Assembly: GCA_049697055.1 (NCBI GenBank)
Contig: JBAVVA010000020.1
Coordinates: 219-64,218 of the forward strand
DNA length: 64,000 bases
Origin: Candidatus Aminicenantales bacterium
Lineage (GTDB): Bacteria; Acidobacteriota; Aminicenantia; Aminicenantales; JAFGAV01
Direction: 5' to 3'
Shown here in pieces: positions 16,704-64,000 of this stretch; the first letter of the stretch is position 1; each line of letters starts with the position of its first letter. The notes beneath the pieces were generated by a model. It did no database searches. It had not been told where the DNA came from and saw only the letters and a program-made list of their open reading frames with translations. A program made the translations under genes and the position numbers.

Positions 16704-19602
16704 GATATTTTTTTTGCATAATGGGTTCAATTTTTTGGATTTGATACGATGAACAAACGTCTCACCTCCCTGGCCATCCCTCTCATCCTCATTCTCCTCG
16801 GCCTGGGAGGGTTCAATATCTATCGCCGCGTCACTTGGAAAGAACCGACGGACGGAGTGCAGTGGGCGGAACGGTCCACCGGCCTCATCGCGGTCAAGGT
16901 CATCAGAGACAGCCCGGCCTATCTGTCCGGGATCAAACTGGGCGACATCCTGTTCAAGATCAACGGCAATCCGGTCAAGAACCGAGCCGACCAGGTTAAG
17001 CTGCTGTGGGTGATCTACCAAACGGGCCAGAAGGCTATCTACGAGATCGGAAGGGAAGGGCAGCCTCCCCTGTCCCCTTCCTTCTATCTGGCCGTCAAAG
17101 GCACGGCTTTGAGCTATTATTATCTGGCCCTGGTGGGGCTCACCGCCTTCGTCATCGGACTTGTCGTCCTGTTCAGCGCGAAATCCCCTTTGACCCTGCC
17201 CTACATTTATTTCTATCTGGCCTCCCTCTGCTTGTATGCCATGTATATCTTCTCTCCCACCGGCCAGCTCGACACATTCGACAGCCTCTTCTTCTGGCTG
17301 GATAAGCTGGCCTTCCTGTTCTTTCCGCCCCTTCTCTTCCACTACTTCAGCATCTTCCCCCAACGGAAGAGGTTTCTAAAGCGCCTGCCCGCCCTCCCCA
17401 TCGTCTTCTACATCCCCGCCCTGCTCCTGCTGGCCGGCCAGGCAGCCCTATTCCTCCCCTGGTTCCAGGGCCTGGAGTCGGGGCGGATGCTGGACCTTTA
17501 CGGCGGGCTGGATAAGATCGGGCTTCTCCACTTCTGCGCTTTCGCCCTGCTGACCATCGGCACGACTTATCACAGCGCCCGCCGCACCTCGAGCGTCCTG
17601 GTCCGCAAGCAGTACACCTGGATCGCTTACGGCCTGGGCATCGGCACCATCCCCTTCCTGGCCTTGGACGCCATCCCCCACCTTGTGGGCCGGGTGCCCA
17701 CGGGCACCGGCGAGCTGACCATCCTCTTTCAGGCGCTCATCCCATTGACCGTGGCCTATTCCATCTCTCGGCATAAAATCATGGATTTCGAGATCGTCCT
17801 TAAAAAGGCCGCCACCCTGGCTTTTTCCTACTTCGTCATCGCCAGCCTCTACCTGGTAGTCAGCTCCCAGACGAGATTTTTCTCCGAAAACCGGCTGAAC
17901 GTGGTCATCCTGGGAGTGCTGGCCATCGTCCTGGGGGCCACGCTTTTCGGCCCGCTGAAAAAGCTCTTTCAGTCCATTCTCGACCGAGTCTTTTATAGGC
18001 GCAGCTACAAGTACCGAAAAACGCTTCTATTCATCAGTCAGGAGTTGAGCCGGGAGCGCAACCTTCAGCAGCTCAGCCAGCGGCTGCTGGAACTCATCGC
18101 CAACGCCCTATCCTTGAAAGGCATCGCCCTGCTGCTGACCGAGGAGAAAGTGCCCCATGCTTTCTCCCTCCTCCAGGCCAGGGGAGAATTCCCTCCCCTG
18201 CCCTCCCGGATCATCCTCGACCCGGACCTCTTCCAGTCCTTCAAGGAATCGGAGCATTTGTCCTACTACGCCTTCCCCGACCGGCGCGACCTTCGCTTCC
18301 GCCTGGAGAAACTATCGGTGTGGGGCTTCTTTCAGTTCATGCCCCTCAAGGTCGAGGACAAGTTCATCGGCTGCTTGGCCATGAGCAAAAAAACGAATGC
18401 CGCCTACCTCACCAGCGAGGACTGGGAGCTGCTGACTACCATCTCCTACCCGGTGGCCTTGGCCCTGGAGAACGCCTATCTCTACGACCAGGCCAGCCTG
18501 CGGACCATGGAAATGGAACGGCTCAAGGATTACAGCGAGAACATCATCGAAAGCCTGACCGTGGGCGTGGCCGTCCTCGACCAGGAGGGAAAAATCATCG
18601 GCTGGAACCGGGTCCTGGAAGAGACCTTCCTCCGCCGGAAGGACAGCGTCCTGGGGCAGAGCCTGTCGGCCATGATCGGTGAGACGAACTTCTCGGCCAT
18701 ATTCCTCCCCGACACCCAGCAGGAGTACCAACTGCTGAGCGAGATCCGCATGGACATCCGTCCCGGCTTGACCAAGATCTTCGACATCGCCAAAACCCCT
18801 CTCCTGGACAACCGGCTCAACCCCTACGGCACGATCATCGTCTTCGAGGACATCACCGACAAGATCATGCTTCAGCAGCAGCTGATAACCTCGGAGAAAC
18901 TGGCCTCCATCGGGCTGCTGTCGGCCGGCGTGGCTCACGAGATCAACACGCCCTTGACCGGCATCTCCAGCTACGTGCAAATGCTGCAGAAAAGGCTGAC
19001 CGATCCCCATTTCGCCCAGATCCTGGAGAAAATAGAGGCCCAGACCGACCGGGTGGCACGGATCATCAAAAACCTGCTCAACTTCGCCCGGAACCCCTCC
19101 GGGATCGCCTTCAGCCGGGTCAACCTCATCGACAACCTGAAGGAAATCCTGGCCCTCATCGAGTATAAACTGAAGGCCATGAACATCCGGCTGGAATTCA
19201 ACTCCGCGCCGCTGCGGCCCATCTGGGCTCAAGGCGAGCGGCTGCAGCAGGTCTTCATCAACATCATCCTCAACGCCCTGGACGCCATGCCCGAGGGCGG
19301 CATCCTGCGCCTCGACATCAGTCAGCAGAACAGCGAGGCCCTGGTGCGCATCGCCGATACGGGCACGGGCATCAAGAAAGACCACCTGCCTCGGATCTTC
19401 GACCCCTTCTTCACCACTAAGGGTCTGGGCAAGGGAACCGGGCTGGGGCTGTCCATCAGCTATGCCATCATTAAAGAACACGAGGGTAGGATCACCGTGG
19501 AGAGCCTGGAGGGCAAAGGCTCGACCTTCAGCGTGGTGCTGCCCATGGACTTGGACGTCCGACGCCGGCATCCGGAAAACTCTCGCCCTCAAGGAACAAA
19601 CC

Positions 19603-20991
<1,389 letters not shown>

Positions 20992-50625: not shown

Positions 50626-52584
50626 GTGATCATGCTCAAAACGATGCGCAAGAATTTCAAATCGTTCGCCCCGGCCCTATGGGTCGTTATCATCACCTTT
50701 ATGGTGGCCATCTTCGCCGTATGGGGCGCCGGCGGGTTCAACCGGGAGGACAAGAACAGCGCCGACAACGTTCCCGTGGCCGAAGTGGCCGGGCGGACGA
50801 TTTACGCCCAGCAGTACGCCAACGGCCTGCAGATGGAGATTCAAAAAAACAGCCAGAGAATTGGCGGGAAATCAACTATAACCAAGAACCTCATCCAGCA
50901 GCTGGACTTGCCCAACAGGACTCTGCGGGGACTCATCCAGTCCACTCTCCTCCTGGAGCTGGCTAAGGAACGGCATGTGCAGGTTACGGACCAGGAGTTC
51001 CAGGGGGAGGTGCGGCGCCTCTATCCCCTGTTCTTCAACGAGAAAAGCGGCCAGTTTGTGGGCCAGAAAGAATACGAGCAGATCCTGGCCTATTATAAGG
51101 TTTCGGTCGCCGAGTTCGAACGGAGCGTCGAGGATTCCATCCGCTTGCAGAAGATCCAGAGCTTGCTGACGGCCGGTCAATCGGTGACGCCCGAGGAGCT
51201 CTGGGACAGCTACCGCAAGGATAAAGAGACGGCCCGCCTGGAGTACCTGGTCCTGGAAAAGGACAAGATGAAGCTGGAGGCCCAGCCGGGCGAGGCGGAG
51301 GTCCAGGACTACTTCAATCGTCATAAGGACGAGTTCCGCATTCCCGAAAAGCGGGAAGCGGTCTATGTTTTCTTTGACCGCTCCGACCTTAAAAAGCAGG
51401 TCGAGCTTTCTTCTCAGGAGATCGAAAAATACTATCAGGACAACCGGGACCAGTTCAAGAATCCGGAGGAGATCAATGTCAGCCGCATCTATCTCCCCTT
51501 CGCCGGCCGGAACAAGGAAGAAGTGAAGGCCGAGATGCGCAGCCTGGCCGAACAATTGGGCCGGGCCGAAGATTTCGCCGAGCTGGCCAAGAAGCACTCC
51601 AAGGATGCCAAAGCTTCCGGGGGCGGCGCCTGGGGGCCCTTTGAATGGCGCTCGCTTTCGGACAAAGAACAAACTGAGATCAAAAAACTCTCCGCCGGCC
51701 GGGTCTCGGGAGTCGTTGAGATCGAGGACGGCCTGTCGCTGCTCAAGGTGACGGCTAAGAAAGAAGCCTCCGACATTCCCCTGGAGGAGGCGCGCCAGCG
51801 CATCAAGGGTATCCTGGAGGACCAGAAGGCCCAGCCCCTGGCCGCGGAGCGGGTCGGCCGGCTGGAGAAAGAAGCCAAGAAAGAGAACAGCCTGGAAAAA
51901 GCGGCTTCCCGCCTGGGCTTGACAACGGAGAAGAGCGGCCCGCTCAAAAAAGGCGATCCCCTGGGCCAAGTGGATCCATCCGGAGTGGTCAGCCAGGCCC
52001 TCTTCCAACTCCAAAACAAGGGCATCTCCGGGCCGCTCTATTCCTACCAGGGAGTCGGGTTGGCCCAGCTCCTGTCCGTCCTTCCCGCACATCCGGCCAC
52101 CTTGGAAGAAGCGCGGGGCGATGTCCTGAACAGGGTGACCGAGGCCAGGAAAAAAGAAATGATCTTGGGCAGGCTGCAAAGCCTCCGGACCCGGATGGCC
52201 GGCCAGAGCTGGGAGGACCTGAGCGCCAAGGAAAAACTGGAATATAAAACGGTCAATGAACATAAGCGCGGCCAGTATCTGGGCACCATCGGAGAAAATG
52301 AGGAAGTGGACCAGTTGGCCTTTTCCCTGCCGCTCCAGACGGTCAGTGAGCCGGTGGACTTCGGCAACGGCTATGTGGTCCTGCGTGTCCTGGCCCGCCA
52401 GGAAGTCACCCGGGAGGATTTCGAAAAGAACAAAGAAGAGATGCGCAGCGCGCTGCTGGAGATGAAGCAGAATCTCTTTCTGGGCTCTTATCTATCCAAG
52501 GTGCAGCGGGAACGGGGCACCGAGGTCAACTATGAGAACTACCTACAGGTCGTCTCGTCCATCCTGTCCAGGTACGAGGACTAA
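50626..52584 (+). CDS. ppiD: Periplasmic chaperone PpiD-like (N-terminal TM, SurA-N, parvulin domain)
   Basis: TM 'FAPALWVVIITFMVAIFAVWGAGGF'; parvulin-like 'GGGAWGPFEWRSLSDKEQTEIKKL...LLKV'. Confidence 0.7.
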   Translation: MIMLKTMRKNFKSFAPALWVVIITFMVAIFAVWGAGGFNREDKNSADNVPVAEVAGRTIYAQQYANGLQMEIQKNSQRIGGKSTITKNLIQQLDLPNRTLRGLIQSTLLLELAKERHVQVTDQEFQGEVRRLYPLFFNEKSGQFVGQKEYEQILAYYKVSVAEFERSVEDSIRLQKIQSLLTAGQSVTPEELWDSYRKDKETARLEYLVLEKDKMKLEAQPGEAEVQDYFNRHKDEFRIPEKREAVYVFFDRSDLKKQVELSSQEIEKYYQDNRDQFKNPEEINVSRIYLPFAGRNKEEVKAEMRSLAEQLGRAEDFAELAKKHSKDAKASGGGAWGPFEWRSLSDKEQTEIKKLSAGRVSGVVEIEDGLSLLKVTAKKEASDIPLEEARQRIKGILEDQKAQPLAAERVGRLEKEAKKENSLEKAASRLGLTTEKSGPLKKGDPLGQVDPSGVVSQALFQLQNKGISGPLYSYQGVGLAQLLSVLPAHPATLEEARGDVLNRVTEARKKEMILGRLQSLRTRMAGQSWEDLSAKEKLEYKTVNEHKRGQYLGTIGENEEVDQLAFSLPLQTVSEPVDFGNGYVVLRVLARQEVTREDFEKNKEEMRSALLEMKQNLFLGSYLSKVQRERGTEVNYENYLQVVSSILSRYED

Positions 52585-55917: not shown

Positions 55918-57360
55918 GTGAACGCACCGTCGGCTCCCAACGGCCCCCCTGGCCGCAAAGTCCCTCTGCCCGTAGCCCTCCTGCCCCTCCTCTTTATGGC
56001 CGGCCTCCTGGGGGTGGGCTACGGAGTCTACAAGATCAAGCCCCAGGTGCTGCTGGTGGTGGCGGCCTTCTTCACCGGCCTCCTGGCCCTCCTCCTCCAC
56101 TTCAACTGGAAAGAGATGGAGCGGGGCATCGTGGACAGCATCCACAAAGCCATGCCGGCCATCCTCATCATGCTGACGGTGGGCATCCTCATCGGGGCCT
56201 GGATCTCCTGCGGCACCATCCCCCTGGTCATCTATTACGGTTTGAAGATCATCTCCCCCCAGTTCTTCCTGGTGACGGCCTGCCTGGTGTGCACTATAGC
56301 CGCCATGGCCACCGGCACCTCGTGGGGCACGGTCGGCACGCTGGGCGTGGCCTTCATGGGCATCGCCATGGGCCTGGGCATCCCTCTGGGTCCGGCGGCC
56401 GGCGCTGTGGTGGCTGGCTCCTACATGGGCGACAAGATGTCCCCTCTATCCGATATCCCCAACCTGGCTACGGTCATCTCCGGGTCGAACCTCTTCGACC
56501 ACATCAAGCACATGATGTGGTCGGCCGTTCCGGCCTGGCTCATCGGCCTGGCCGTTTACGGCCTGGCCGGCCTGGGCTACGGCCAGGGCGGAGTCAGCTC
56601 CGAGACGGTGAACCTCATCACCGACACTCTGCGCCGGGAGTTCCTCAACCGGAACCCCTGGCTCAATCTGCTGCTGCTCCTGCCCATGGCCATCGTCTTC
56701 TTCTTCGCCGTGGCCAAGAAGCCGACCATCCCAGCCATGCTCCTGTCCTCGGCGGCGGCCGCCGTCCTGGCCCTGGTCCTCCAGAAAATGCCCCTCACCG
56801 AGTTCGCCGTAGCGGTCAACTCCGGCTACCGGGCCCACAGCGGCGTGGAGATGGTGGACAAGCTGCTGTCGCGGGGCGGGATGATGAGCATGATGGAGAC
56901 CCAGCTGGTGGCCTTCACCGCCTTCAGCTTCGGGGGCATTATGCAGAGCACCGGCATGCTGCGCGTCATCCTCAATTCCATCATGGGCCTCTGCCGGAGG
57001 GTGTGGAGCCTAGTCCTGACCACGGTGGCCACGGCCATCGTCTCGGCCCTGGTCACGGGCAGTTCCTACCTGTCCATGATCATCCCCGCCGAGCTGCTGG
57101 CGCCGGCCTTTAAGGAGAAAGGCCTGGCGGCCAAGAACATGTCGCGGATCATCGAGGAAAGCGGCGGGATCATCGTCCCCCTCATCCCCTGGAGCATGGC
57201 CGGCGTCTACATCACCGGCACCATCGGCGTCCCCACCTTGTCCTACCTGCCCTGGGCCATTATGAACTATGCTTCGGTGGCCATCCTCATCCTCTTCGGG
57301 GCCACGGGCTTCACCATGGCCGCCCGCAAACGGGAAGACGAAACGCAGGCCGGAAGCTGA
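55918..57360 (+). CDS. NhaC-family membrane transporter (Na+/H+ antiporter NhaC-like), co-transcribed with iadA
   Basis: 480 aa, about 12 TM, 11-nt gap after iadA. Confidence 0.65.
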   Translation: MNAPSAPNGPPGRKVPLPVALLPLLFMAGLLGVGYGVYKIKPQVLLVVAAFFTGLLALLLHFNWKEMERGIVDSIHKAMPAILIMLTVGILIGAWISCGTIPLVIYYGLKIISPQFFLVTACLVCTIAAMATGTSWGTVGTLGVAFMGIAMGLGIPLGPAAGAVVAGSYMGDKMSPLSDIPNLATVISGSNLFDHIKHMMWSAVPAWLIGLAVYGLAGLGYGQGGVSSETVNLITDTLRREFLNRNPWLNLLLLLPMAIVFFFAVAKKPTIPAMLLSSAAAAVLALVLQKMPLTEFAVAVNSGYRAHSGVEMVDKLLSRGGMMSMMETQLVAFTAFSFGGIMQSTGMLRVILNSIMGLCRRVWSLVLTTVATAIVSALVTGSSYLSMIIPAELLAPAFKEKGLAAKNMSRIIEESGGIIVPLIPWSMAGVYITGTIGVPTLSYLPWAIMNYASVAILILFGATGFTMAARKREDETQAGS

Positions 57361-57811
57361 TCCAGTCCAGCCGAGGCTTATTTCTTTTGACAATCACTCA
57401 TTTAATGGCGAAGTTTGCCGGAGGCGGGAATAGCGCGATCAAAGGCCCAGTTCTTGATCTGTTTAACGAATTATTACTCCATTCTTATTAATATCTTTAT
57501 ATATATCATTTATATCTTTTGAAAACTTGGCACAGGCGCCCGGCTTTCCCCAAATTGTTGTAGCTATAAAGAAATTATTGTTTTCTGCTTTCGTTTCATC
57601 TGAATAGAGCTGTATTACATTCGAATTAAAAATATGTATCCGCATTTTTAATAATATAGAATATGCATACTGCGAAAAATTATCAATAAGGATAATATCT
57701 TATGGCAATAATAGGAATAAAATGGGGAAAACCATTAAAAAGAATTCGGGGTATTGAACTGTCTGTTTCCGATTTATTGACATTCCTTAGAGATATCCTC
57801 AAAATGCAATT

Positions 57812-59191
57812 ATGAAAAAAATGGGCCTGCTTTTTCTTGTTCCTTTGGTTTTTTCGCTGTTAACTTTTCCGGCACTCTCTGTCGCTGCGGCGGTCGACGA
57901 GACAGAGCTCCACCAAATCCTGAAGGACGCGGTGGAGAATCGGCGTACGGTCGGCATCGTCGTGGGGATCGTCGATGCCAATGGCAAGATGATCTCCAGC
58001 TATGGAAAAACCGCAATTGGCGGCGGCGATGTCGATGGAGACAGCGTCTTCGAGATCGGCTCGATTTCCAAGGTATTCACAACCACGCTGCTGGCCGACA
58101 TGATCCAGCGGGGCGAAATCAGCCTCGATGATCCCGTGTCGAAGTACCTGCCCAAGAATGTGACGATGCCGGCACGCGGCGGCAAAGTGATCACTTTGCT
58201 CGACCTGGCGACGCACCGGTCCGGGCTTCCTCGCCTTCCGGATAATATCAAGCCGGCAGATCCCATGAATCCGTACGCCGGCTACACGGCCGAGATGCTG
58301 TTCGATTTCCTCTCGCGTTGCACCTTGACCAGGGACATCGGCCAGAGCTATGAATACTCGAATCTCGGCGTCGGCCTTCTTGGCGAGGTGCTGGCGCGGA
58401 GAGCTGGCAAGAGCTATGAAGCTTTGCTCACCGAGAGGATCTTCCGCCCCCTGGATATGAACAGCAGCGGCATTGTCTTGAGGCCCGAGATGTCGGCCCG
58501 GCTGGCCATGGGGCATTCGGCCGGATTGGTCCAGGTCAAGAACTGGGACATTGATGCTCTCGCCGGCGCGGGCGCGATCCGCTCGACCGCTACCGATATG
58601 CTCAAATTCATGGCCGCCAACATGGGGCTGGAGCCTTCGCCGCTGGCTAAGTCGATGGCCATGGCCCGGCAGGACCTCAAGGACACGACGATCCCCGGCA
58701 TGCGCATCGGCCTCGCCTGGCACCTGATGACACGCCCGGACACGGTGATCGTGTGGCACAACGGCGGAACCGGCGGGTACCATAGTTTCGCCGGGTTCGA
58801 TTTGAAGAAAGGACTGGGCGTCGTGGTCCTGTCGAACAGCGCGAATAGCATTGATGACATCGGCTTTCACATCTTGGATGATCGATTGCCGCTGGCCAAA
58901 CCTCCGAAGGAGAGGAAGGAGATCGCCTTGGAACCGGCGGAGCTGGATGCGTACGCCGGGGAGTACCAGCTGGCGCCGAATTTTATGATCACCATCACCA
59001 AAGAGGCGGACGCGTTGTTCGCGCAGGCAACAGGGCAGGGCCGCGTGCGCCTGTATCCGGAGGCCGCTGGGGAATTCTTCATCAAAGAAGCGGACGCCCA
59101 GATCTCTTTCGAGAAGGACGCGACGGGGCGGGTGACGCACCTCGTCCTCCATCAGGGCGGCGTCGACCAGAAAGCAAGCAAGGTCAAGTAA
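57812..59191 (+). CDS. Class C beta-lactamase / penicillin-binding-protein family serine hydrolase, secreted
   Basis: Signal 'MKKMGLLFLVPLVFSLLTFPALSVAAA'; 'SISKVF' SxxK, 'YEYSNLG' YxN, 'HNGGTGG'; preceded by a very AT-rich 450-bp spacer. Confidence 0.8.
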   Translation: MKKMGLLFLVPLVFSLLTFPALSVAAAVDETELHQILKDAVENRRTVGIVVGIVDANGKMISSYGKTAIGGGDVDGDSVFEIGSISKVFTTTLLADMIQRGEISLDDPVSKYLPKNVTMPARGGKVITLLDLATHRSGLPRLPDNIKPADPMNPYAGYTAEMLFDFLSRCTLTRDIGQSYEYSNLGVGLLGEVLARRAGKSYEALLTERIFRPLDMNSSGIVLRPEMSARLAMGHSAGLVQVKNWDIDALAGAGAIRSTATDMLKFMAANMGLEPSPLAKSMAMARQDLKDTTIPGMRIGLAWHLMTRPDTVIVWHNGGTGGYHSFAGFDLKKGLGVVVLSNSANSIDDIGFHILDDRLPLAKPPKERKEIALEPAELDAYAGEYQLAPNFMITITKEADALFAQATGQGRVRLYPEAAGEFFIKEADAQISFEKDATGRVTHLVLHQGGVDQKASKVK

Positions 59192-59315
59192 GCGACCCGG
59201 AAAGAATATTCAATGAGGCTCTAGAGCCGGTCCGCACGGCCGATGCCAAGGACATGGCCAGGCGCCTCGCGCGGGAGGAGGCCCTCTTTGTTATAATCTG
59301 GCCACAATTGTTCCC

Positions 59316-59362
59316 GCCGGGGTGGCGGAAGTGGCAGAGGCAAGGGATTTAATACCCTCCTG
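59316..59362 (+). pseudogene. 5' half of a tRNA-Leu(TAA) gene (acceptor 5' strand, D arm, anticodon arm) with upstream TATAAT (59292-59297); no T-arm/3' acceptor follows
   Basis: 'GCCGGGGTGGCGGAAGTGGCAGAGGCAAGGGATTTAATACCCTCC' parallels bacterial tRNA-Leu(UAA) through the anticodon arm; no GGTTCGA-like T-arm nor CCCCGGC follows. Confidence 0.45.
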
Positions 59363-59469
59363 TGGGAGATGATTTGTCTTTTTATTCATAGTGGAAAGAA
59401 GCGCAAGGGGGCACAAAAAATGACTTATGAAGCAATAATTAAAAGGAGAGTTAGGGGCGATACTCACGT

Positions 59470-60669
59470 TTGTCTTTTATTGTGGCTTATCTGTTCAGTT
59501 GCTGGCTGGCCAGTACCCAGCACGCCCAAAGCGCTATCACGCCTTTGATGAAGCCGGACCCCTGGAGTCAAAACATCATCACTCAAAAGGTCCAGATTAT
59601 TCTGCAGATCAAGATGAAATCAGTTTTCAAGGATAGGATCTGCGGCCTCATTACTGAGGATTTCACCTACGATTATGAAATCAATTCAGAGGGCACATTT
59701 CAATACGCGCCGGACTTCAGCCTATTTAGCCTATATGGATATAATGAGGCCCTTGCTCCCAAGCAGATCCGAATCCGGGACGCCAGCGGATATTGGATCC
59801 GGTTCGAGAGCGGATGCCAGGGGGGGACCCGTCATAATTACTCAACTCACCAAGTCCAATACAACGATTGGGCTTATTATGACCTCAGGATCGAGCATCC
59901 CCCACGCTCTGAACACTGCAACGTATATTTTGACAACCATGTGTACCTCCGGTTTCCTGGCTATTCGGGAAATGTTCTCACATCTCCAGAACCGGGTTTC
60001 TATTATGACACCGAGAATATTGACTATATGGTCACTCCGGCGATTATGCAGCAGGCGGTGAGGGAAGGAAGCTATCATAAGACCTTGCAAGTCAGGAGAG
60101 GAGACGGTTCTGAGTATCGCGATTTGACTCTGGACATCACAGTCCTCTTTGAGCCCAAGGAGGAAGGAGTCCTCAAGGTCACGCCACCTGACGGCCTGGA
60201 TGAGTCCTGTCCCAGCTCAAATTGTGATTTCAAATCGCTGGCCAAATCCTATACCCTAACCAACGCGGGCTCTTCTCCGATCAATTACACTGTCTCCAAA
60301 ACGGCAAGCTGGCTTGAACTCACCCCGACTGGTGGCGTATTGCAGCCAGGCGCTTCCACAACTGTAACAGCATCCATTAGCGTTGAGGCCCAAAAAGAAC
60401 TCAAAGAAGGGGTACACAAAGATACTCTTAGCTTCACTAACACGACTAATGGGAAAGGAAACACATCACGCGCTGTCAAGCTGGAGAAGTCTGAACGACA
60501 ATGCTGGCGCGTCACCCTGACTGGACAGGAAACAGATGACATGGGTGGCAGCTTAATGACCATTAAGATGGAAGATGTTTGGAAGCAGGTAACCGTTGAC
60601 TATGGGGTCCGGTTTGACTATCAACTGGTTGCCGAATTCAATATTAGAGCTTGTTCCAAAGTTACGTGA
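59470..60669 (+). CDS. Hypothetical protein, lower-GC, with C-terminal Ig-like/BACON-like beta-sandwich; 3' end created by IS insertion (likely truncated)
   Basis: TTG/GTG start uncertain; 'YTLTNAGSSPINYTVSKTASWLELTPTGGVLQPGASTTVTASI' pattern typical of Ig-like surface domains; last 7 codons (ACSKVT*) lie inside the IS left inverted repeat. Confidence 0.4.
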   Translation: MSFIVAYLFSCWLASTQHAQSAITPLMKPDPWSQNIITQKVQIILQIKMKSVFKDRICGLITEDFTYDYEINSEGTFQYAPDFSLFSLYGYNEALAPKQIRIRDASGYWIRFESGCQGGTRHNYSTHQVQYNDWAYYDLRIEHPPRSEHCNVYFDNHVYLRFPGYSGNVLTSPEPGFYYDTENIDYMVTPAIMQQAVREGSYHKTLQVRRGDGSEYRDLTLDITVLFEPKEEGVLKVTPPDGLDESCPSSNCDFKSLAKSYTLTNAGSSPINYTVSKTASWLELTPTGGVLQPGASTTVTASISVEAQKELKEGVHKDTLSFTNTTNGKGNTSRAVKLEKSERQCWRVTLTGQETDDMGGSLMTIKMEDVWKQVTVDYGVRFDYQLVAEFNIRACSKVT

Positions 60670-62080
60670 TGGCATTTGACAGCGATAAAAAAGAAGGGCT
60701 ACAACCCTCCGTGGTGTCTCCCACAACACTAGGAGGTGTAGCCCAATGGACGACCTCGAAATCAAGATCGCCATCACCTATAAGGTACCAAAAAACAACC
60801 TCACGCTCAACGGTCTTCTGCGCGGGTTGGAGCTCAACCGGGATGAGATCATGAGGGCCATCCTCGGCCGCATCTTGGAAGCCTTGGAAGAGAAGGCCAA
60901 GGACGATTATCCCCCGGGTCGTTATGTCCTGAACGGCCATCAATCGACGGCTCGGAACCTTCGGACCTCGTTCGGGCGGATTCGTCACCGGATGGCTCAG
61001 GTCCTGGATCGGACGACGGGAGCGGTCGTGTTCCCTCTGATCGAACGGTTGAAGATCGAACCGTATCGCCAGTATCAGAGGGAGACGCTGGAAGCGCCGG
61101 TGGGCCAGGCGATCCATCTGTCCTACCGCTGGGCGACGAAGGAGACGCGACGCCTCCGGGGCCATGGACCGAGCACGAGCACGCTCTGGCGTCGGCTTCA
61201 GGAGGTGGCCGAATCTCAGGGCGGCTGGCCGCCTCTCAAACATCGACCGTTTGCCTTTCTGATGGTCGACGGGACCAAGGTCAGGCGCCAACGCCGAGGA
61301 GTCTCCTTGGAGCCGGCGGAAATGCGCTGGGCCTGGGCCTCGGAAGGCGTTGGTAAACCGTTTGAATTGGTGGGGTTCTGGGTGGGAGACAGATGGGAAA
61401 CGATTCGCCGGGACCTCAGTCGCCGTCTGAGCTATGGGCGTCTGCGGATGCTGTTTTCCGATGGCGGGCCGGGCATCGAGGACAACCTCCGTTCGGCGCG
61501 GATGGAGTGTCAGCGGTGCCTCTGGCATGGTCAACACGACTTTCGCTTTCTTCTCTACGCCGATGAGGTCAAGGGACCGGCCCAACGGGAGTTCCTGGAG
61601 CTTTTGAACCGCAATCCTCTCTTCCACCTGCGGCAGGCGGAGCTGGAAACGCTGAAACCCCAGGACGAGCCTCTGGTGCGCAAGCTCGCCCGAACGATCC
61701 GGAGCGGCTTTGGAGAGCTTCTGGCGGCGTTGCCGGAGAGCCGTTATCCGAAAACGCGGACCTACCTTCTGAACTTCTCGAGGCAGGCGTTGGCGTTTTT
61801 CGATTACTGGCTGGACCATCAACAGTGGATTCCGTTCACGACGAACATTGCCGAGTCGGCCTTCAGTCGGGTGGTGAATCGAATCAAGCGAATCGGCCGC
61901 CGCTGGAGCGAGACCGGACTCCTGAACTGGCTGACCATGGCCTTCCGTAAAATCTTTCACCCCGCGTTGTGGACGTCTCTTTGGCGCCAGTATCTGCGGC
62001 TCCATCGCAGCTTGCATCTGGCCTCTTTAATCTCCGAATACCGATGGATCGATGCCATCACGTAACTTTGGAACAAGCTC
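60647..62080 (+). mobile_element. Insertion sequence with 29-bp perfect terminal inverted repeats (GAGCTTGTTCCAAAGTTACGTGATGGCAT ... ATGCCATCACGTAACTTTGGAACAAGCTC) carrying one DDE transposase gene
   Basis: IRs read directly at 60647-60675 and 62052-62080 (imperfect extension to about 60640/62087); encloses ORF 60746-62065. Confidence 0.75.
60746..62065 (+). CDS. DDE transposase (ISL3/IS256/ISLre2-like C-terminal N-x2-E...IKR motif)
   Basis: RBS aggaggtg; 'FLMVDGTKV', 'MLFSDGGPGI', 'TTNIAESAFSRVVNRIKRIGRRW'; stop codon lies within the right IR. Confidence 0.75.
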   Translation: MDDLEIKIAITYKVPKNNLTLNGLLRGLELNRDEIMRAILGRILEALEEKAKDDYPPGRYVLNGHQSTARNLRTSFGRIRHRMAQVLDRTTGAVVFPLIERLKIEPYRQYQRETLEAPVGQAIHLSYRWATKETRRLRGHGPSTSTLWRRLQEVAESQGGWPPLKHRPFAFLMVDGTKVRRQRRGVSLEPAEMRWAWASEGVGKPFELVGFWVGDRWETIRRDLSRRLSYGRLRMLFSDGGPGIEDNLRSARMECQRCLWHGQHDFRFLLYADEVKGPAQREFLELLNRNPLFHLRQAELETLKPQDEPLVRKLARTIRSGFGELLAALPESRYPKTRTYLLNFSRQALAFFDYWLDHQQWIPFTTNIAESAFSRVVNRIKRIGRRWSETGLLNWLTMAFRKIFHPALWTSLWRQYLRLHRSLHLASLISEYRWIDAIT

Positions 62081-62195
62081 GTTTATTAAGAGACAGGCGT
62101 CCTAAAACGAGGACAAGGTCTGCTATCATTTAAGAGTTCTTTTCATTCAATATTTGGCATAAAAAATGCTTATTAATATGCCGAGGAGGGGAAAG

Positions 62196-64000
62196 ATGAG
62201 CAAACATCAAAAAACTTCAATATTTCTGATTATTTTGGGCTTGCTCGCATTCACTTCAGTCGCATCCGCTGAACAGCCCTACAAGGTTGCCTTCAGCCCG
62301 GCCAACCTCTACCTCGGCCATATTTCTTATGTAGAAATCAAAAACGACGGTCAAGACCCAATGATTTTAAGGGAAGGACAATCCGTGCCGGAGATGGCTG
62401 TCCTCAATGCACCCATCGGTCCGGGGGATGTTATCCGGACATCCGCTATCCGGCGATGCGAGATCCAATTTGACACGGCGACCATTATCCGGCTGGACAC
62501 CGACACGGAACTCAGGATTGAGACAGTCTTAGCCCAGACGTTGTCAGCCAGTGACAGAGCGACCAACCTGGTTCTGGCCAAGGGTCAGCTCTACATCATG
62601 TACAAAGAATTCGATTTTCGTGAACTCTTCCAGGTCATGACCCCTGCCGCCGCCATTAAGTTCAGTCAAGATACGGTGGCTCTGGTCAAGGCCGCGACCG
62701 ACGGGGCGACCGAGCTCCAGGTGAAGCGAGGAAAAGCAACAGCGCTTTTTGGCCCGTCGGCGGCCCAGGCTAAGGGAAGAGGGGTCGGAAAATTGGAGAG
62801 CCTGATCGTTTCCAAAGACGGCCTGGTTCAAAAGGCGGCCTATGCCGCTGATACGGATTTCGGGCGCTGGAACGAAGAAATCAACGCCGCTTTCAATGAT
62901 CTGCACAAAGGTCTGAGCTTTTTGCCCAAGCCCGTGCAGCGCTTTTCCCCGGCCATCGTCGCCTGGGCCGAGAAGTATTCCAGCCGATACGGCAGGTGGA
63001 TTTATGACATGCTCTACGGTTATGTATGGCGCCCTGACAACAATGATGTCTATCCGTGGGTAAACTGGCGGCCCTATTTCTATGGCCATTGGACAAGAGC
63101 CTATGATCAATTGTTCTGGGTCTCCGATGAGCAGTGGGGTTGGGCCCCCTATCATCTCGGCGTTTGGGTTTGGGACAAGGAGTTAGGGTGGATTTGGATC
63201 CCTGGCTCTGTCTTTGCCTCGGCCTGGGTAGGCTGGGGATTTTTCAACGGCTACTATTCTTGGTGGCCCTACGAATTCAGCGATTGGTGGATGTGGAATG
63301 CTTGGGGCAGTAATTATTATGATAACTATCAGTCCTGGTATGTTTACTCTACCACCCCGGGCAAAACGCTGAGGAAGATCTCCAAGGCGCAGTTGAAAAA
63401 GCCCGAACCGCCCCTACCCCTGCCCAACGACCTCAAGGCTGTATATGACCGGTTTGCGGCGGCCCTGAAGAAGCAAGACCCACGCCTGATTGCCTCCCTC
63501 CAACAATCGGTCAAGCGCATCGTCTTTGCATATCCTGCTGACATTCATTTCCCAAACATCGCTGAAAGGGCCATCCCTCTTAGCCAGCTTTCTTCTGCGT
63601 CGGAACTTTTGAAGGCCCAGCCAAGCCCGGCCGATAAAATCCGCCATGAAAATCCCCGTGCTGCGGCCGCCTGGGATTGGAAAAAAAATATCCAGCTTGC
63701 GGCCGCTAAAGAGCCGTCTCAGCGAGCCATAGAGCCGATCAATAAAATTGAGTCTTTCCCGGCCAGCGCAGCCGCCCCAAATATTCAAGCCCCTTCCATC
63801 CGCTTTCTGGACTGGAACCCCGACCTGAAAACGGTCACGCGGTTCGGCGGGACTATTCGCTACTCAAGCCGGACGAATGAAGTCCAATGTCCGGAGCTGG
63901 GATTGACCTCTCGCCTCGTATCTGTTATCGGCCTCCCCTTTCGCTCCGCGGTCGTTATAGACGCCTTCATGGGAGGGGCTAGTCAAGGCTCTTCGGCGTT
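62196..64000 (+). CDS. Secreted FecR-domain protein with extremely Trp/Tyr-rich region and Pro-rich linker (3' partial, runs off window)
   Basis: Not in supplied ORF track (no stop before window end), translated manually with no in-frame stop. RBS gaggagggg; signal 'MSKHQKTSIFLIILGLLAFTSVASA'; FecR-like block 'GPGDVIRTSAIRRCEIQFDTATIIRLDTDTELRI...LVLAKGQLYI'. About 21 W in ~115 aa ('WGWAPYHLGVWVWDKELGWIWIPG...WWPYEFSDWWMWNAWG'). Confidence 0.6.
   Translation, partial: MSKHQKTSIFLIILGLLAFTSVASAEQPYKVAFSPANLYLGHISYVEIKNDGQDPMILREGQSVPEMAVLNAPIGPGDVIRTSAIRRCEIQFDTATIIRLDTDTELRIETVLAQTLSASDRATNLVLAKGQLYIMYKEFDFRELFQVMTPAAAIKFSQDTVALVKAATDGATELQVKRGKATALFGPSAAQAKGRGVGKLESLIVSKDGLVQKAAYAADTDFGRWNEEINAAFNDLHKGLSFLPKPVQRFSPAIVAWAEKYSSRYGRWIYDMLYGYVWRPDNNDVYPWVNWRPYFYGHWTRAYDQLFWVSDEQWGWAPYHLGVWVWDKELGWIWIPGSVFASAWVGWGFFNGYYSWWPYEFSDWWMWNAWGSNYYDNYQSWYVYSTTPGKTLRKISKAQLKKPEPPLPLPNDLKAVYDRFAAALKKQDPRLIASLQQSVKRIVFAYPADIHFPNIAERAIPLSQLSSASELLKAQPSPADKIRHENPRAAAAWDWKKNIQLAAAKEPSQRAIEPINKIESFPASAAAPNIQAPSIRFLDWNPDLKTVTRFGGTIRYSSRTNEVQCPELGLTSRLVSVIGLPFRSAVVIDAFMGGASQGSSA

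What the first reader, a model, noticed from the sequence alone, without database searches (positions are those of the whole stretch)
57361..62195. Mosaic, probably horizontally acquired island: AT-rich spacer, class-C beta-lactamase-family hydrolase, tRNA-Leu remnant, low-GC Ig-like gene, IS element
Composition switches abruptly after nhaC (57361-57811 is very AT-rich, then moderately lower-GC genes). The segment contains a tRNA gene fragment (classic integration-site scar) and an intact IS. The serine hydrolase has full SxxK/YxN/HxG motifs and a signal peptide, so it could be a functional beta-lactamase or DD-peptidase.
Basis: partly seen in the sequence, partly recalled or inferred. Interest (0 to 1): 0.55.

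Follow-up and report, generated by a model that had tools for sequence, protein, structure and literature searches.

The report
Patchwork rearrangement junction with gene relics
Downstream of nhaC, this uncultured Aminicenantes bacterium carries a 4.8-kb patchwork of one intact secreted serine hydrolase, one intact ISH6-family insertion sequence and three broken gene remnants, which is ordinary genome wear around a mobile element and not a discrete acquired island or a resistance gene.

Summary
All five listed elements are real, but the interval is not one island. The window comes from a Candidatus Aminicenantes chromosome.

Gene order is conserved up to the nhaC stop codon (57360). In 66 of 69 related species a sigma-54 activator follows nhaC. 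None has any gene of this interval there.

The interval is made of abutting blocks with different nearest relatives:
- **AT-rich "spacer":** it holds the first 60 codons of a rare ~315-aa gene on the minus strand.
- **Hydrolase block (57738-59218):** it has normal composition. It is 96% identical to a metagenome contig whose flanks differ on both sides.
- **tRNA-Leu(UAA) relic (59316-59370):** a promoter plus the first 55 nt only.
- **Ig-like BACON_2 gene:** low GC, frameshifted, and missing its last ~134 codons.
- **Insertion sequence (60647-62080):** a 1434-bp ISH6-family element with perfect 29-bp ends. Its flanks do not form the family's 8-bp duplication and belong to unrelated loci.

The best reading is a junction built by serial insertion, truncation and IS-mediated deletion or rearrangement. 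An assembly chimera at the IS cannot be excluded. The hydrolase resembles Pab87/IS11-type enzymes (SISK, YSN, HNG, no KTG) and is not a class C beta-lactamase. Interest is low.

The parts
57361..57737 (.). AT-rich block (GC 0.337). It is unique to this genome and begins right after the nhaC stop codon, where nucleotide homology to the closest relatives ends.
   Evidence: Composition. blastn of L002/L003 ends at 57360. Homology to L097 starts only at 57738.
57466..57645 (-). Relic of a truncated gene: the first 60 codons of a rare ~315-aa family of unknown function, followed by a stop. The remaining ~255 codons are missing.
   Evidence: phmmer against 1.84 billion representatives: P0263 E 5e-19, query 19-77 to protein 1-59. 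tblastn 63% identity over 60 aa, E 7e-23. Full-length members give only a sub-threshold DUF3800 match, and nothing in PADLOC or PHROGs.
57738..59218 (+). Hydrolase block: promoter-like TTGACA-17-CAAAAT (57777-57805), the gene, and 27 nt after the stop. The block is shared at 96% nucleotide identity with contig L097, whose flanks differ on both sides.
   Evidence: blastn L097 459-1937 = window 57738-59218, 96.2%. Breakpoint alignments. Promoter scan.
57812..59191 (+). Intact gene for a secreted serine hydrolase of 459 aa (PF00144 plus C-terminal DUF3471), with SISK84-87, YSN182-184 and HNG316-318.
   Evidence: Homologs of 456 aa at 66-74% identity are named Aminicenantes or Acidobacteriota. GC 0.596, GC3 0.77.
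59289..59297 (+). Extended -10 promoter motif TGTTATAAT, 18 nt upstream of the tRNA-like 5' end.
   Evidence: Read directly from the sequence. Function is inferred, not tested.
59316..59370 (+). tRNA-Leu(UAA) pseudogene fragment covering positions 1-55: acceptor 5' strand, D arm, anticodon arm and the start of the variable arm. There is no T arm and no 3' acceptor strand. It has a C23-to-G change in the D stem, only 3 of 5 anticodon-stem pairs, and T at position 37.
   Evidence: blastn E 3e-6. The matched sequences are tRNA-Leu(taa) by ARAGORN. Alignments. Not called by ARAGORN or Rfam.
59420..60646 (+). Relic of a low-GC BACON_2 (Ig-like) secreted-protein gene. The likely original ATG is at 59420. 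A 1-nt deletion in a T-run at 59478/59479 shifts the frame within the signal peptide. The gene is cut off at the IS and lacks its last ~134-150 codons. (The mechanical ORF is 59470-60669; its last 7 codons are read from the IS end.)
   Evidence: Full-length homologs are 570-610 aa. tblastn of P0002 residues 78-470 ends at 60639. Frameshift relative to L082. Nothing of the missing part follows the IS. GC 0.49, GC3 0.56.
60647..62080 (+). ISH6-family insertion sequence, 1434 bp. IRL is 60647-60675 and IRR is 62052-62080 (29 bp, perfect). The transposase gene is 60746-62065 (439 aa). The flanking 8-mers are CAATATTA on the left and GTTTATTA on the right, so there is no target-site duplication.
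   Evidence: Contig L107 is exactly this 1434-bp unit, and sibling copy L105 has a perfect 8-bp duplication TAATAATA. The family's 8-bp AT-rich target duplication is described in PMC3942029.
62081..64000 (+). Right-hand locus: 115 nt of upstream region and a FecR+DUF6600 gene (62196 onward, running off the window). Homology to L099 (81% nt) starts 4 nt after the IS end.

Best explanation
The interval between nhaC and the FecR-like gene is a lineage-specific rearrangement junction in an Aminicenantes chromosome. It was built by several separate events and is not one integrated island.

Two units are intact:
- A secreted two-domain serine hydrolase carried on a 1.48-kb gene-sized block that also occurs elsewhere in a different context.
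- A 1434-bp ISH6-family insertion sequence.

The other identifiable pieces are broken remnants (a 97-nt stretch, 59219-59315, remains unexplained):
- The first 60 codons of an AT-rich gene on the minus strand.
- The promoter and first 55 nt of a tRNA-Leu(UAA) gene.
- A low-GC BACON_2 gene that is frameshifted at its start and cut off at its end.

Inferred mechanism. The IS uses a Mutator-like DDE transposase that inserts at AT-rich 8-bp targets and duplicates them. Here the left flank is the interior of the BACON_2 gene and the right flank is the upstream region of the FecR-like gene, and the two 8-mers differ. The present copy is therefore most simply a hybrid. It would be left by recombination between two copies, or by an IS-mediated adjacent deletion or inversion, that removed the 3' end of the BACON_2 gene and joined two loci that lie apart in relatives.

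Shown: the blocks, their breakpoints, the truncations, the loss of synteny and the missing duplication. Inferred: the order of events and the IS-recombination mechanism.

The hydrolase most likely acts on D-amino-acid peptides (cell-wall or environmental) or on esters in the periplasm, as its two structurally characterised two-domain relatives do. It is unlikely to be a beta-lactamase.
For: **Synteny.** The order PpiD/SurA-like gene (50626-52584), [M29 peptidase-like gene, present in a minority], acyltransferase, iadA, nhaC is conserved across the 80 fetched loci where contig length allows. Nucleotide homology to the closest relatives stops at 57360. 66 of 69 relatives have a sigma-54 activator on the minus strand within 3.5 kb after nhaC. 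None has an interval gene there.

**Separate histories of the blocks.**
- Hydrolase block: 96% identical to L097 with sharp breakpoints at 57738 and 59218. A third context exists in L108.
- BACON_2 relic: best homolog 65% identical, on a 48%-GC contig.
- FecR region: 81% identical to L099 from 62085 on, with argS and an MFS transporter to the left in L099.

**Truncations.** (AT-rich relic; tRNA; BACON_2).

**IS.** Its boundaries are fixed by L107, a contig of exactly 1434 nt. The 8-bp duplication is shown by L105. The window flanks CAATATTA and GTTTATTA match at only 5 of 8 positions. The family property is described in PMC3942029. Close transposases (87-94% identity) mostly sit on contigs of about 1.0-1.8 kb (longest 8.7 kb), as expected for a multi-copy repeat. 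More distant homologs (51-74%) are named Aminicenantes, Aminicenantales or Aminicenantaceae.

**Island hallmarks are absent.** The interval has only three sizeable ORFs (hydrolase, BACON_2 relic, transposase) and none is an integrase. The tRNA piece is not repeated elsewhere in the window.
Against: - The window ends at 64000, so the far side of the rearrangement cannot be seen.
- No reciprocal junction or second IS copy lies in the window.
- 5 of 8 flank positions match. This could be a decayed duplication, although ISH6 target preference explains it equally well.
- The closest available relatives are only 81-82% identical in NhaC, so no 'empty site' from a near-identical genome was available.
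- The contiguity across the IS rests on an assembly that I cannot check.
- The order and number of events are inferred.
Confidence: 0.6

Rival explanations
1. Assembly chimera. The contig was joined wrongly across the multi-copy 1.4-kb IS, and possibly at the tRNA-like stretch. If so, nhaC...BACON_2 and FecR... are not neighbours in the real chromosome, and the missing target duplication is an artefact.
For: An independent Logan assembly of run SRR27973238 breaks exactly at these places. L001 ends at 59345, and L083 spans 59318-60672 and ends inside the left IR. Close copies of the IS mostly assemble as stand-alone contigs of about 1.4-1.8 kb, and some short contigs show mismatched flanks. The window flanks do not match.
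Against: A chimera at the IS would not explain the synteny break at the nhaC stop, the truncated AT-rich gene, the half tRNA or the frameshift. These all lie left of the IS and are identical in the Logan contigs. L001 and L083 overlap by 28 identical nt, so the tRNA-like join is consistent between assemblies. Contig breaks at repeats are expected whether or not the join is correct.
Confidence: 0.2
2. A single genomic island integrated by a site-specific recombinase into a tRNA-Leu gene, and later degraded by deletions and an IS insertion.
For: A tRNA-Leu fragment sits exactly where GC drops from about 0.60-0.63 to 0.38-0.49. The interval is absent from relatives. Two pieces are compositionally foreign.
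Against: There is no integrase and no repeat of the tRNA sequence. The surviving part is the 5' 55 nt, whereas tRNA-targeting integrases leave the 3' part duplicated and the gene intact (established knowledge, not tested here). No relative has a tRNA within 10 kb of nhaC. The hydrolase lies on the 'host' side of the tRNA piece yet is itself non-syntenic. The blocks have different nearest relatives. nhaC and the FecR-like gene are not neighbours in any relative.
Confidence: 0.12
3. Ancestral arrangement retained here and lost in the sampled relatives.
For: The hydrolase family is common in Aminicenantes and Acidobacteriota.
Against: 66 of 69 species across a wide GC range share the alternative neighbour. 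The interval consists mostly of truncated genes of differing composition.
Confidence: 0.03

Closest known systems
ISH6-family insertion sequences (prokaryotic Mutator-like transposase group p-MULT 2; the bacterial example is ISDesp5)
   Same: A single transposase ORF scoring above the NCBIfam ISH6 equivalog cutoff, an element of about 1.4 kb, terminal inverted repeats, and AT-rich 8-bp targets duplicated on insertion, as seen in sibling copy L105 (PMC3942029).
   Different: The host is Aminicenantes, whereas the 2014 survey found the family almost only in archaea. This copy lacks a matching duplication and joins two unrelated loci.
Hybrid IS copies left by recombination between two IS copies, or by IS-mediated adjacent deletion
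   Same: An intact IS whose two flanks carry different target 8-mers and belong to sequences that lie apart in relatives, with a gene truncated at one end.
   Different: The reciprocal product or second copy was not seen. Deletion and inversion cannot be told apart within the window.
Pab87 'CubicO' D-peptidase (PDB 2qmi) and the metagenomic carboxylesterase IS11 (PDB 7spn)
   Same: [quoted passage not shown] The matches cover query 33-425 (2qmi) and 46-410 (7spn), extending only partly into the C-terminal DUF3471 region at 368-447. IS11's catalytic residues (Ser68, Lys71; Tyr160, Asn162; motif-3 His299; PMC9972953) parallel the window's S-x-x-K, Y-x-N and His-containing third motif. JGI names homologs 'CubicO group peptidase'.
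   Different: The relationship is distant (E 1e-22 to 1e-26). The window protein has a signal-peptide-like N-terminus. Oligomeric state and substrate are unknown. That DUF3471 is lipocalin-like in this protein was not tested by structure.
Class C (AmpC) beta-lactamases and E. coli AmpH
   Same: The PF00144 family, with SxxK and YxN aligned to AmpC S64/K67 and Y150/N152.
   Different: KTG is replaced by HNG. Scores are far below the curated cutoffs (139 against 415; 178 against 266). There is an extra C-terminal domain.
tRNA-gene-associated genomic islands
   Same: A tRNA-derived sequence at a compositional boundary in a non-syntenic region.
   Different: No integrase and no att repeat. The surviving piece is the 5' and not the 3' part of the tRNA, the tRNA is non-functional, and no tRNA lies at this locus in relatives.

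Membership tests
ISH6-family insertion sequence | Transposase matches the curated ISH6 equivalog model above its cutoff | tested here: met
   NF041731 scores 412.4 bits against a cutoff of 240 and covers model positions 2-414 of 414.
ISH6-family insertion sequence | Terminal inverted repeats bounding a single-ORF element of about 1.4-1.5 kb | tested here: met
   Perfect 29-bp IRs at 60647-60675 and 62052-62080, with 0 matches expected by chance. The 1434-bp unit equals stand-alone contig L107.
ISH6-family insertion sequence | 8-bp AT-rich target-site duplication | tested here: not met
   For this copy the flanks are CAATATTA and GTTTATTA, 5 of 8 identical. The feature is met in sibling copy L105 (TAATAATA on both sides). 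The family property is described in PMC3942029.
ISH6-family insertion sequence | Intact DDE catalytic triad | not tested
   Only a full-length model match was obtained; individual residues were not mapped.
Class C beta-lactamase | Score above the NCBIfam bla_class_C cutoff | tested here: not met
   139.2 bits against a cutoff of 415.
Class C beta-lactamase | Motifs S-x-x-K, Y-x-N and K-T-G | tested here: not met
   SISK84-87 and YSN182-184 are present and aligned to AmpC. The third box is H316-N-G, and no K[TS]G occurs anywhere in the protein.
AmpH DD-carboxypeptidase/endopeptidase (equivalog) | Score above the NF007943 cutoff | tested here: not met
   178 bits against a cutoff of 266.
PF00144 serine hydrolase with C-terminal DUF3471 (Pab87/IS11-type two-domain enzymes) | Both Pfam domains above their gathering scores | tested here: met
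   PF00144 scores 232.8 against 27. PF11954 scores 52.7 against 29.3.
PF00144 serine hydrolase with C-terminal DUF3471 (Pab87/IS11-type two-domain enzymes) | Hydrolytic activity on D-peptides or esters; oligomeric architecture | not testable with these tools
   Needs enzymology and structure.
Functional tRNA-Leu gene | Complete cloverleaf recognised by tRNA finders | tested here: not met
   ARAGORN finds 0 genes in the window. Rfam gives no tRNA hit even at E up to 10 on 58-301 nt. The T arm and 3' acceptor strand are absent.
Functional tRNA-Leu gene | Sequence similarity to tRNA-Leu(UAA) | tested here: met
   55 nt at 82% identity to positions 1-55, E 3e-6.
tRNA-integrated genomic island | Integrase or recombinase gene in the element | tested here: not met
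   The interval has only three sizeable ORFs: hydrolase, BACON_2 relic and DDE transposase.
tRNA-integrated genomic island | Direct repeat of the tRNA 3' segment at the far end | tested here: not met
   The tRNA-like stretch has no second match in the 64-kb window. Sequence beyond 64000 is not visible.
tRNA-integrated genomic island | Flanking genes adjacent in relatives (empty site) | tested here: not met
   Relatives have nhaC followed by a sigma-54 activator (66 of 69). L099 has argS, an MFS transporter, then the FecR-like gene.

The most novel reading that the evidence does not exclude
The 1.48-kb hydrolase block (promoter plus gene) may be a self-contained cassette that moves between Aminicenantes genomes by an unrecognised site-specific or microhomology-guided mechanism. 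It is 96% identical in two contigs with unrelated flanks on both sides. It is bounded by the short direct repeat AAAGAATTC / AAAGAATATTC.
Probability: 0.05. Interest if true: 0.5.

Novelty: new member of a known kind. Interest (0 to 1): 0.2.

Why it matters
It mainly matters as a correction. A region that reads like a tRNA-linked resistance island is a decaying rearrangement junction in an uncultured environmental bacterium, and its 'beta-lactamase' is not a class C enzyme by any test applied here. Two modest positives remain. First, ISH6-family elements, first described in haloarchaea, are common and apparently active in Aminicenantes. Second, this copy preserves the signature of an IS-mediated deletion or rearrangement. 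For annotation, three ORF-like or 'intergenic' stretches here should be labelled as pseudogene fragments.

Tried and rejected
- **tRNA finders.** ARAGORN and Rfam were run on the tRNA-like stretch, including short sub-windows that allow truncated matches. They gave no tRNA call. The identity was settled by blastn against annotated or ARAGORN-verified tRNA-Leu genes.
- **Continuation of the BACON_2 gene after the IS.** Local alignment of the 115 nt after the IS against three homolog genes scored no better than shuffles. That stretch is homologous to the FecR upstream region of L099.
- **A decayed inverted PF00144 paralog in the AT-rich stretch.** This was suggested by the 21/24 inverted match at 57438-57461 / 58532-58555. 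A family profile scored no better than 43 of 500 shuffles, so I rejected it. Most of the stretch is instead explained by the N-terminal relic of an unrelated ~315-aa family; the 24-nt match itself lies just outside that relic and remains unexplained.
- **Function of that ~315-aa family.** Pfam, PADLOC and PHROGs gave only a sub-threshold DUF3800 match.
- **Native tRNA-Leu downstream of nhaC.** None of the 80 nhaC-related loci contains any tRNA.
- **Source contig by exact-protein look-up.** Only two short Logan contigs were recovered.
- **Orthology to the L100/L101-type FecR-like gene.** That gene lies about 10 kb from nhaC, in inverted orientation, in many relatives. At 37-40% identity against 77% for L099, it looks like a paralog, so I did not build an inversion model on it.
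- **Searches of public collections.** Plasmids gave one trivial 35-nt hit for the AT-rich stretch. Viral contigs gave no match to the IS end.


Full report
**Organism and setting**

NhaC (55918-57360) is 81-82% identical to proteins of Candidatus Aminicenantes genomes assembled from metagenomes. 80 related loci were fetched. The window has GC 0.59 and carries housekeeping-type genes such as glutamine synthetase, a NuoF-like protein, a PpiD/SurA-like protein and two-component regulators. It is therefore chromosomal.

**Checking the observation**

*AT-rich stretch.* Right after the nhaC stop, 57361-57737 has GC 0.337, the lowest in the window (400-nt windows: mean 0.591, sd 0.054).

*Hydrolase.* The gene at 57812-59191 matches PF00144 (232.8 bits) and DUF3471 (52.7 bits). 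It has SISK84-87, YSN182-184 and HNG316-318. Its GC (0.596) and GC3 (0.77) are typical of the genome (z -0.3 and -0.2).

*tRNA-like stretch.* ARAGORN and Rfam find no tRNA. However, blastn of 59300-59400 against 2.3 Gb of phage records gives E 3e-6 for 59316-59370. ARAGORN shows that the matched sequences are tRNA-Leu(taa), positions 1-55. The copy has a D-stem mismatch, only 3 of 5 anticodon-stem pairs and T at position 37. It has no T arm and no 3' acceptor strand, so it is a dead 5' fragment. An extended -10 motif, TGTTATAAT, lies 18 nt upstream.

*Ig-like ORF.* The ORF at 59470-60669 matches BACON_2 at 35 bits. It is the lowest-GC gene of 42 compared (GC 0.489, GC3 0.56, z -3.2).

*Insertion sequence.* It spans 60647-62080, with perfect 29-bp inverted repeats and a full-length ISH6-family transposase (412 bits, cutoff 240).

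**Synteny**

The order PpiD/SurA-like gene (50626-52584), [M29 peptidase-like gene, in a minority of loci], acyltransferase, iadA, nhaC is conserved across the 80 loci where contig length allows. Nucleotide homology to the closest relatives ends at 57360. Of the 80 loci, 64 have at least 5 kb downstream of nhaC, and none has a homolog of the hydrolase, the Ig-like protein, the transposase or the FecR-like protein there. Instead, 66 of 69 loci with at least 3 kb downstream have a sigma-54 activator on the minus strand within 3.5 kb. The window has only a receiver-domain paralog of that activator, at 19462-20991. No tRNA lies in any of these loci. The arrangement in the window is therefore derived.

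**Each block has its own history**

(a) *The AT-rich 'spacer'.* It holds a 60-codon ORF on the minus strand (57466-57645). A search of 1.84 billion representative proteins matched it to the N-terminus (residues 1-59) of ~315-aa proteins (E 5e-19). tblastn gives 63% identity. The remaining ~255 codons are absent, so this is a truncated relic of a rare family of unknown function.

(b) *The hydrolase block.* 57738-59218 is 96% identical to JGI contig L097, and the homology stops sharply on both sides. A third context exists in L108 (84% nt). Homologs of 456 aa at 66-74% identity are named Aminicenantes or Acidobacteriota. The gene is therefore native to the lineage but has been relocated or exchanged as a gene-sized unit.

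(c) *The BACON_2 gene.* Full-length homologs are 570-610 aa. The best one, P0002 (65% identity), aligns over residues 78-470 and the alignment ends at 60639, leaving ~134 codons missing. Nothing of the missing part follows the IS. Relative to L082, the window has a 1-nt deletion at 59478/59479 that shifts the frame in the signal-peptide region. P0002's contig has 48% GC, whereas other homologs match the GC of their own loci. This is consistent with acquisition from a lower-GC lineage.

(d) *The FecR+DUF6600 gene and its 115-nt leader.* They are 81% identical to L099 starting at 62085, 4 nt after the IS end. In L099 the left neighbours are argS and an MFS transporter.

**The IS junction**

Contig L107 is exactly the 1434-bp element. 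Sibling copy L105 is flanked by a perfect 8-bp duplication, TAATAATA. This matches the published ISH6 property of duplicating an AT-rich 8-mer (PMC3942029).

In the window the flanks are CAATATTA (interior of the BACON_2 gene) and GTTTATTA (FecR leader, GTCCATTA in L099). The IS therefore joins two unrelated sequences without a duplication. The simplest reading is a hybrid copy left by recombination between two copies, or an IS-mediated deletion or inversion. That event removed the BACON_2 3' end and brought together two loci that are separate in relatives.

The main alternative is a mis-join across a multi-copy repeat. Logan contigs from run SRR27973238 break at 59318-59345 and at 60672. A mis-join would not remove the synteny break at nhaC or the relics to the left of the IS.

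**The hydrolase**

It fails the curated cutoffs for class C beta-lactamase (139 bits against 415) and AmpH (178 against 266). KTG is replaced by HNG. Its PDB matches include two two-domain relatives:
- Pab87 (2qmi, aligned over query 33-425) is a peptidase specific for peptides containing D-amino acids (PMC2651629).
- IS11 (7spn, aligned over query 46-410) is a carboxylesterase with Ser/Lys, Tyr/Asn and His motifs and a lipocalin lid (PMC9972953).

I infer a periplasmic D-peptide or ester hydrolase. Beta-lactamase activity is unlikely but was not tested.

**Verdict**

'Mosaic' and 'not in relatives' hold, and two pieces look foreign by composition. It is not a discrete tRNA-integrated island between nhaC and the FecR-like gene. 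It has no integrase and no att repeat, and the wrong half of the tRNA survives. It also has two independent synteny breakpoints, and its blocks have different nearest relatives. This is a known kind of genome feature containing new members of known families, and interest is low.

Noticed in passing
window 59289-59297: An extended -10 promoter motif (TGTTATAAT) sits 18 nt upstream of the tRNA-Leu-like fragment. The relic seems to have kept its own promoter, which now points into the frameshifted BACON_2 relic.
   Followed up: no
window 57438-57461 and 58532-58555: A 24-nt inverted match (21/24) links the AT-rich stretch and the hydrolase gene (QIKNWAFD against QVKNWDID). A profile test for a hidden hydrolase relic was not significant (43 of 500 shuffles scored as well). 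Most of the stretch is explained by an unrelated N-terminal gene relic, but the 24-nt match lies just outside that relic.
   Followed up: yes
window 57739-57747 and 59204-59214: The hydrolase block shared with L097 is bounded by the short direct repeat AAAGAATTC / AAAGAATATTC. This may be chance in AT-rich sequence.
   Followed up: partly
L082 5371-7185, L084 10001-11716, L086 10001-11830: Full-length members of the BACON_2 (Ig-like) family (570-610 aa) lie next to large Ser/Thr protein kinase plus TPR genes in three otherwise unrelated contigs. No such kinase was found among the large window ORFs that were scanned.
   Followed up: partly
L001 (= window 57185-59345) and L083 (= window 59318-60672): Logan contigs from run SRR27973238 are 100% identical to the window but break inside the tRNA-like stretch and inside the left IS end. 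The break in the tRNA-like stretch implies that another sequence in that sample shares about 30 nt with it, perhaps a strain variant or a second copy.
   Followed up: no
L100 6830-13670 and L101 18300-20400 against L002/L003 17000-21200: A more distant FecR/DUF6600 paralog (37-40% identity) lies about 10 kb downstream of nhaC, in inverted orientation, in many Aminicenantes. The window's FecR-like gene is closer to the separate L099-type locus.
   Followed up: partly
window 59194-59315: The GC-rich stretch between the hydrolase stop and the tRNA relic reads ...EALEPVRTADAKDMARRLAREEALF in one frame. It might be the tail of another lost gene.
   Followed up: no
L108 1644-3074; L098 (several genes): The hydrolase family sits in many unrelated contexts. 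L098 carries five further PF00144 genes within 20 kb, so the family is expanded in some Acidobacteriota.
   Followed up: no
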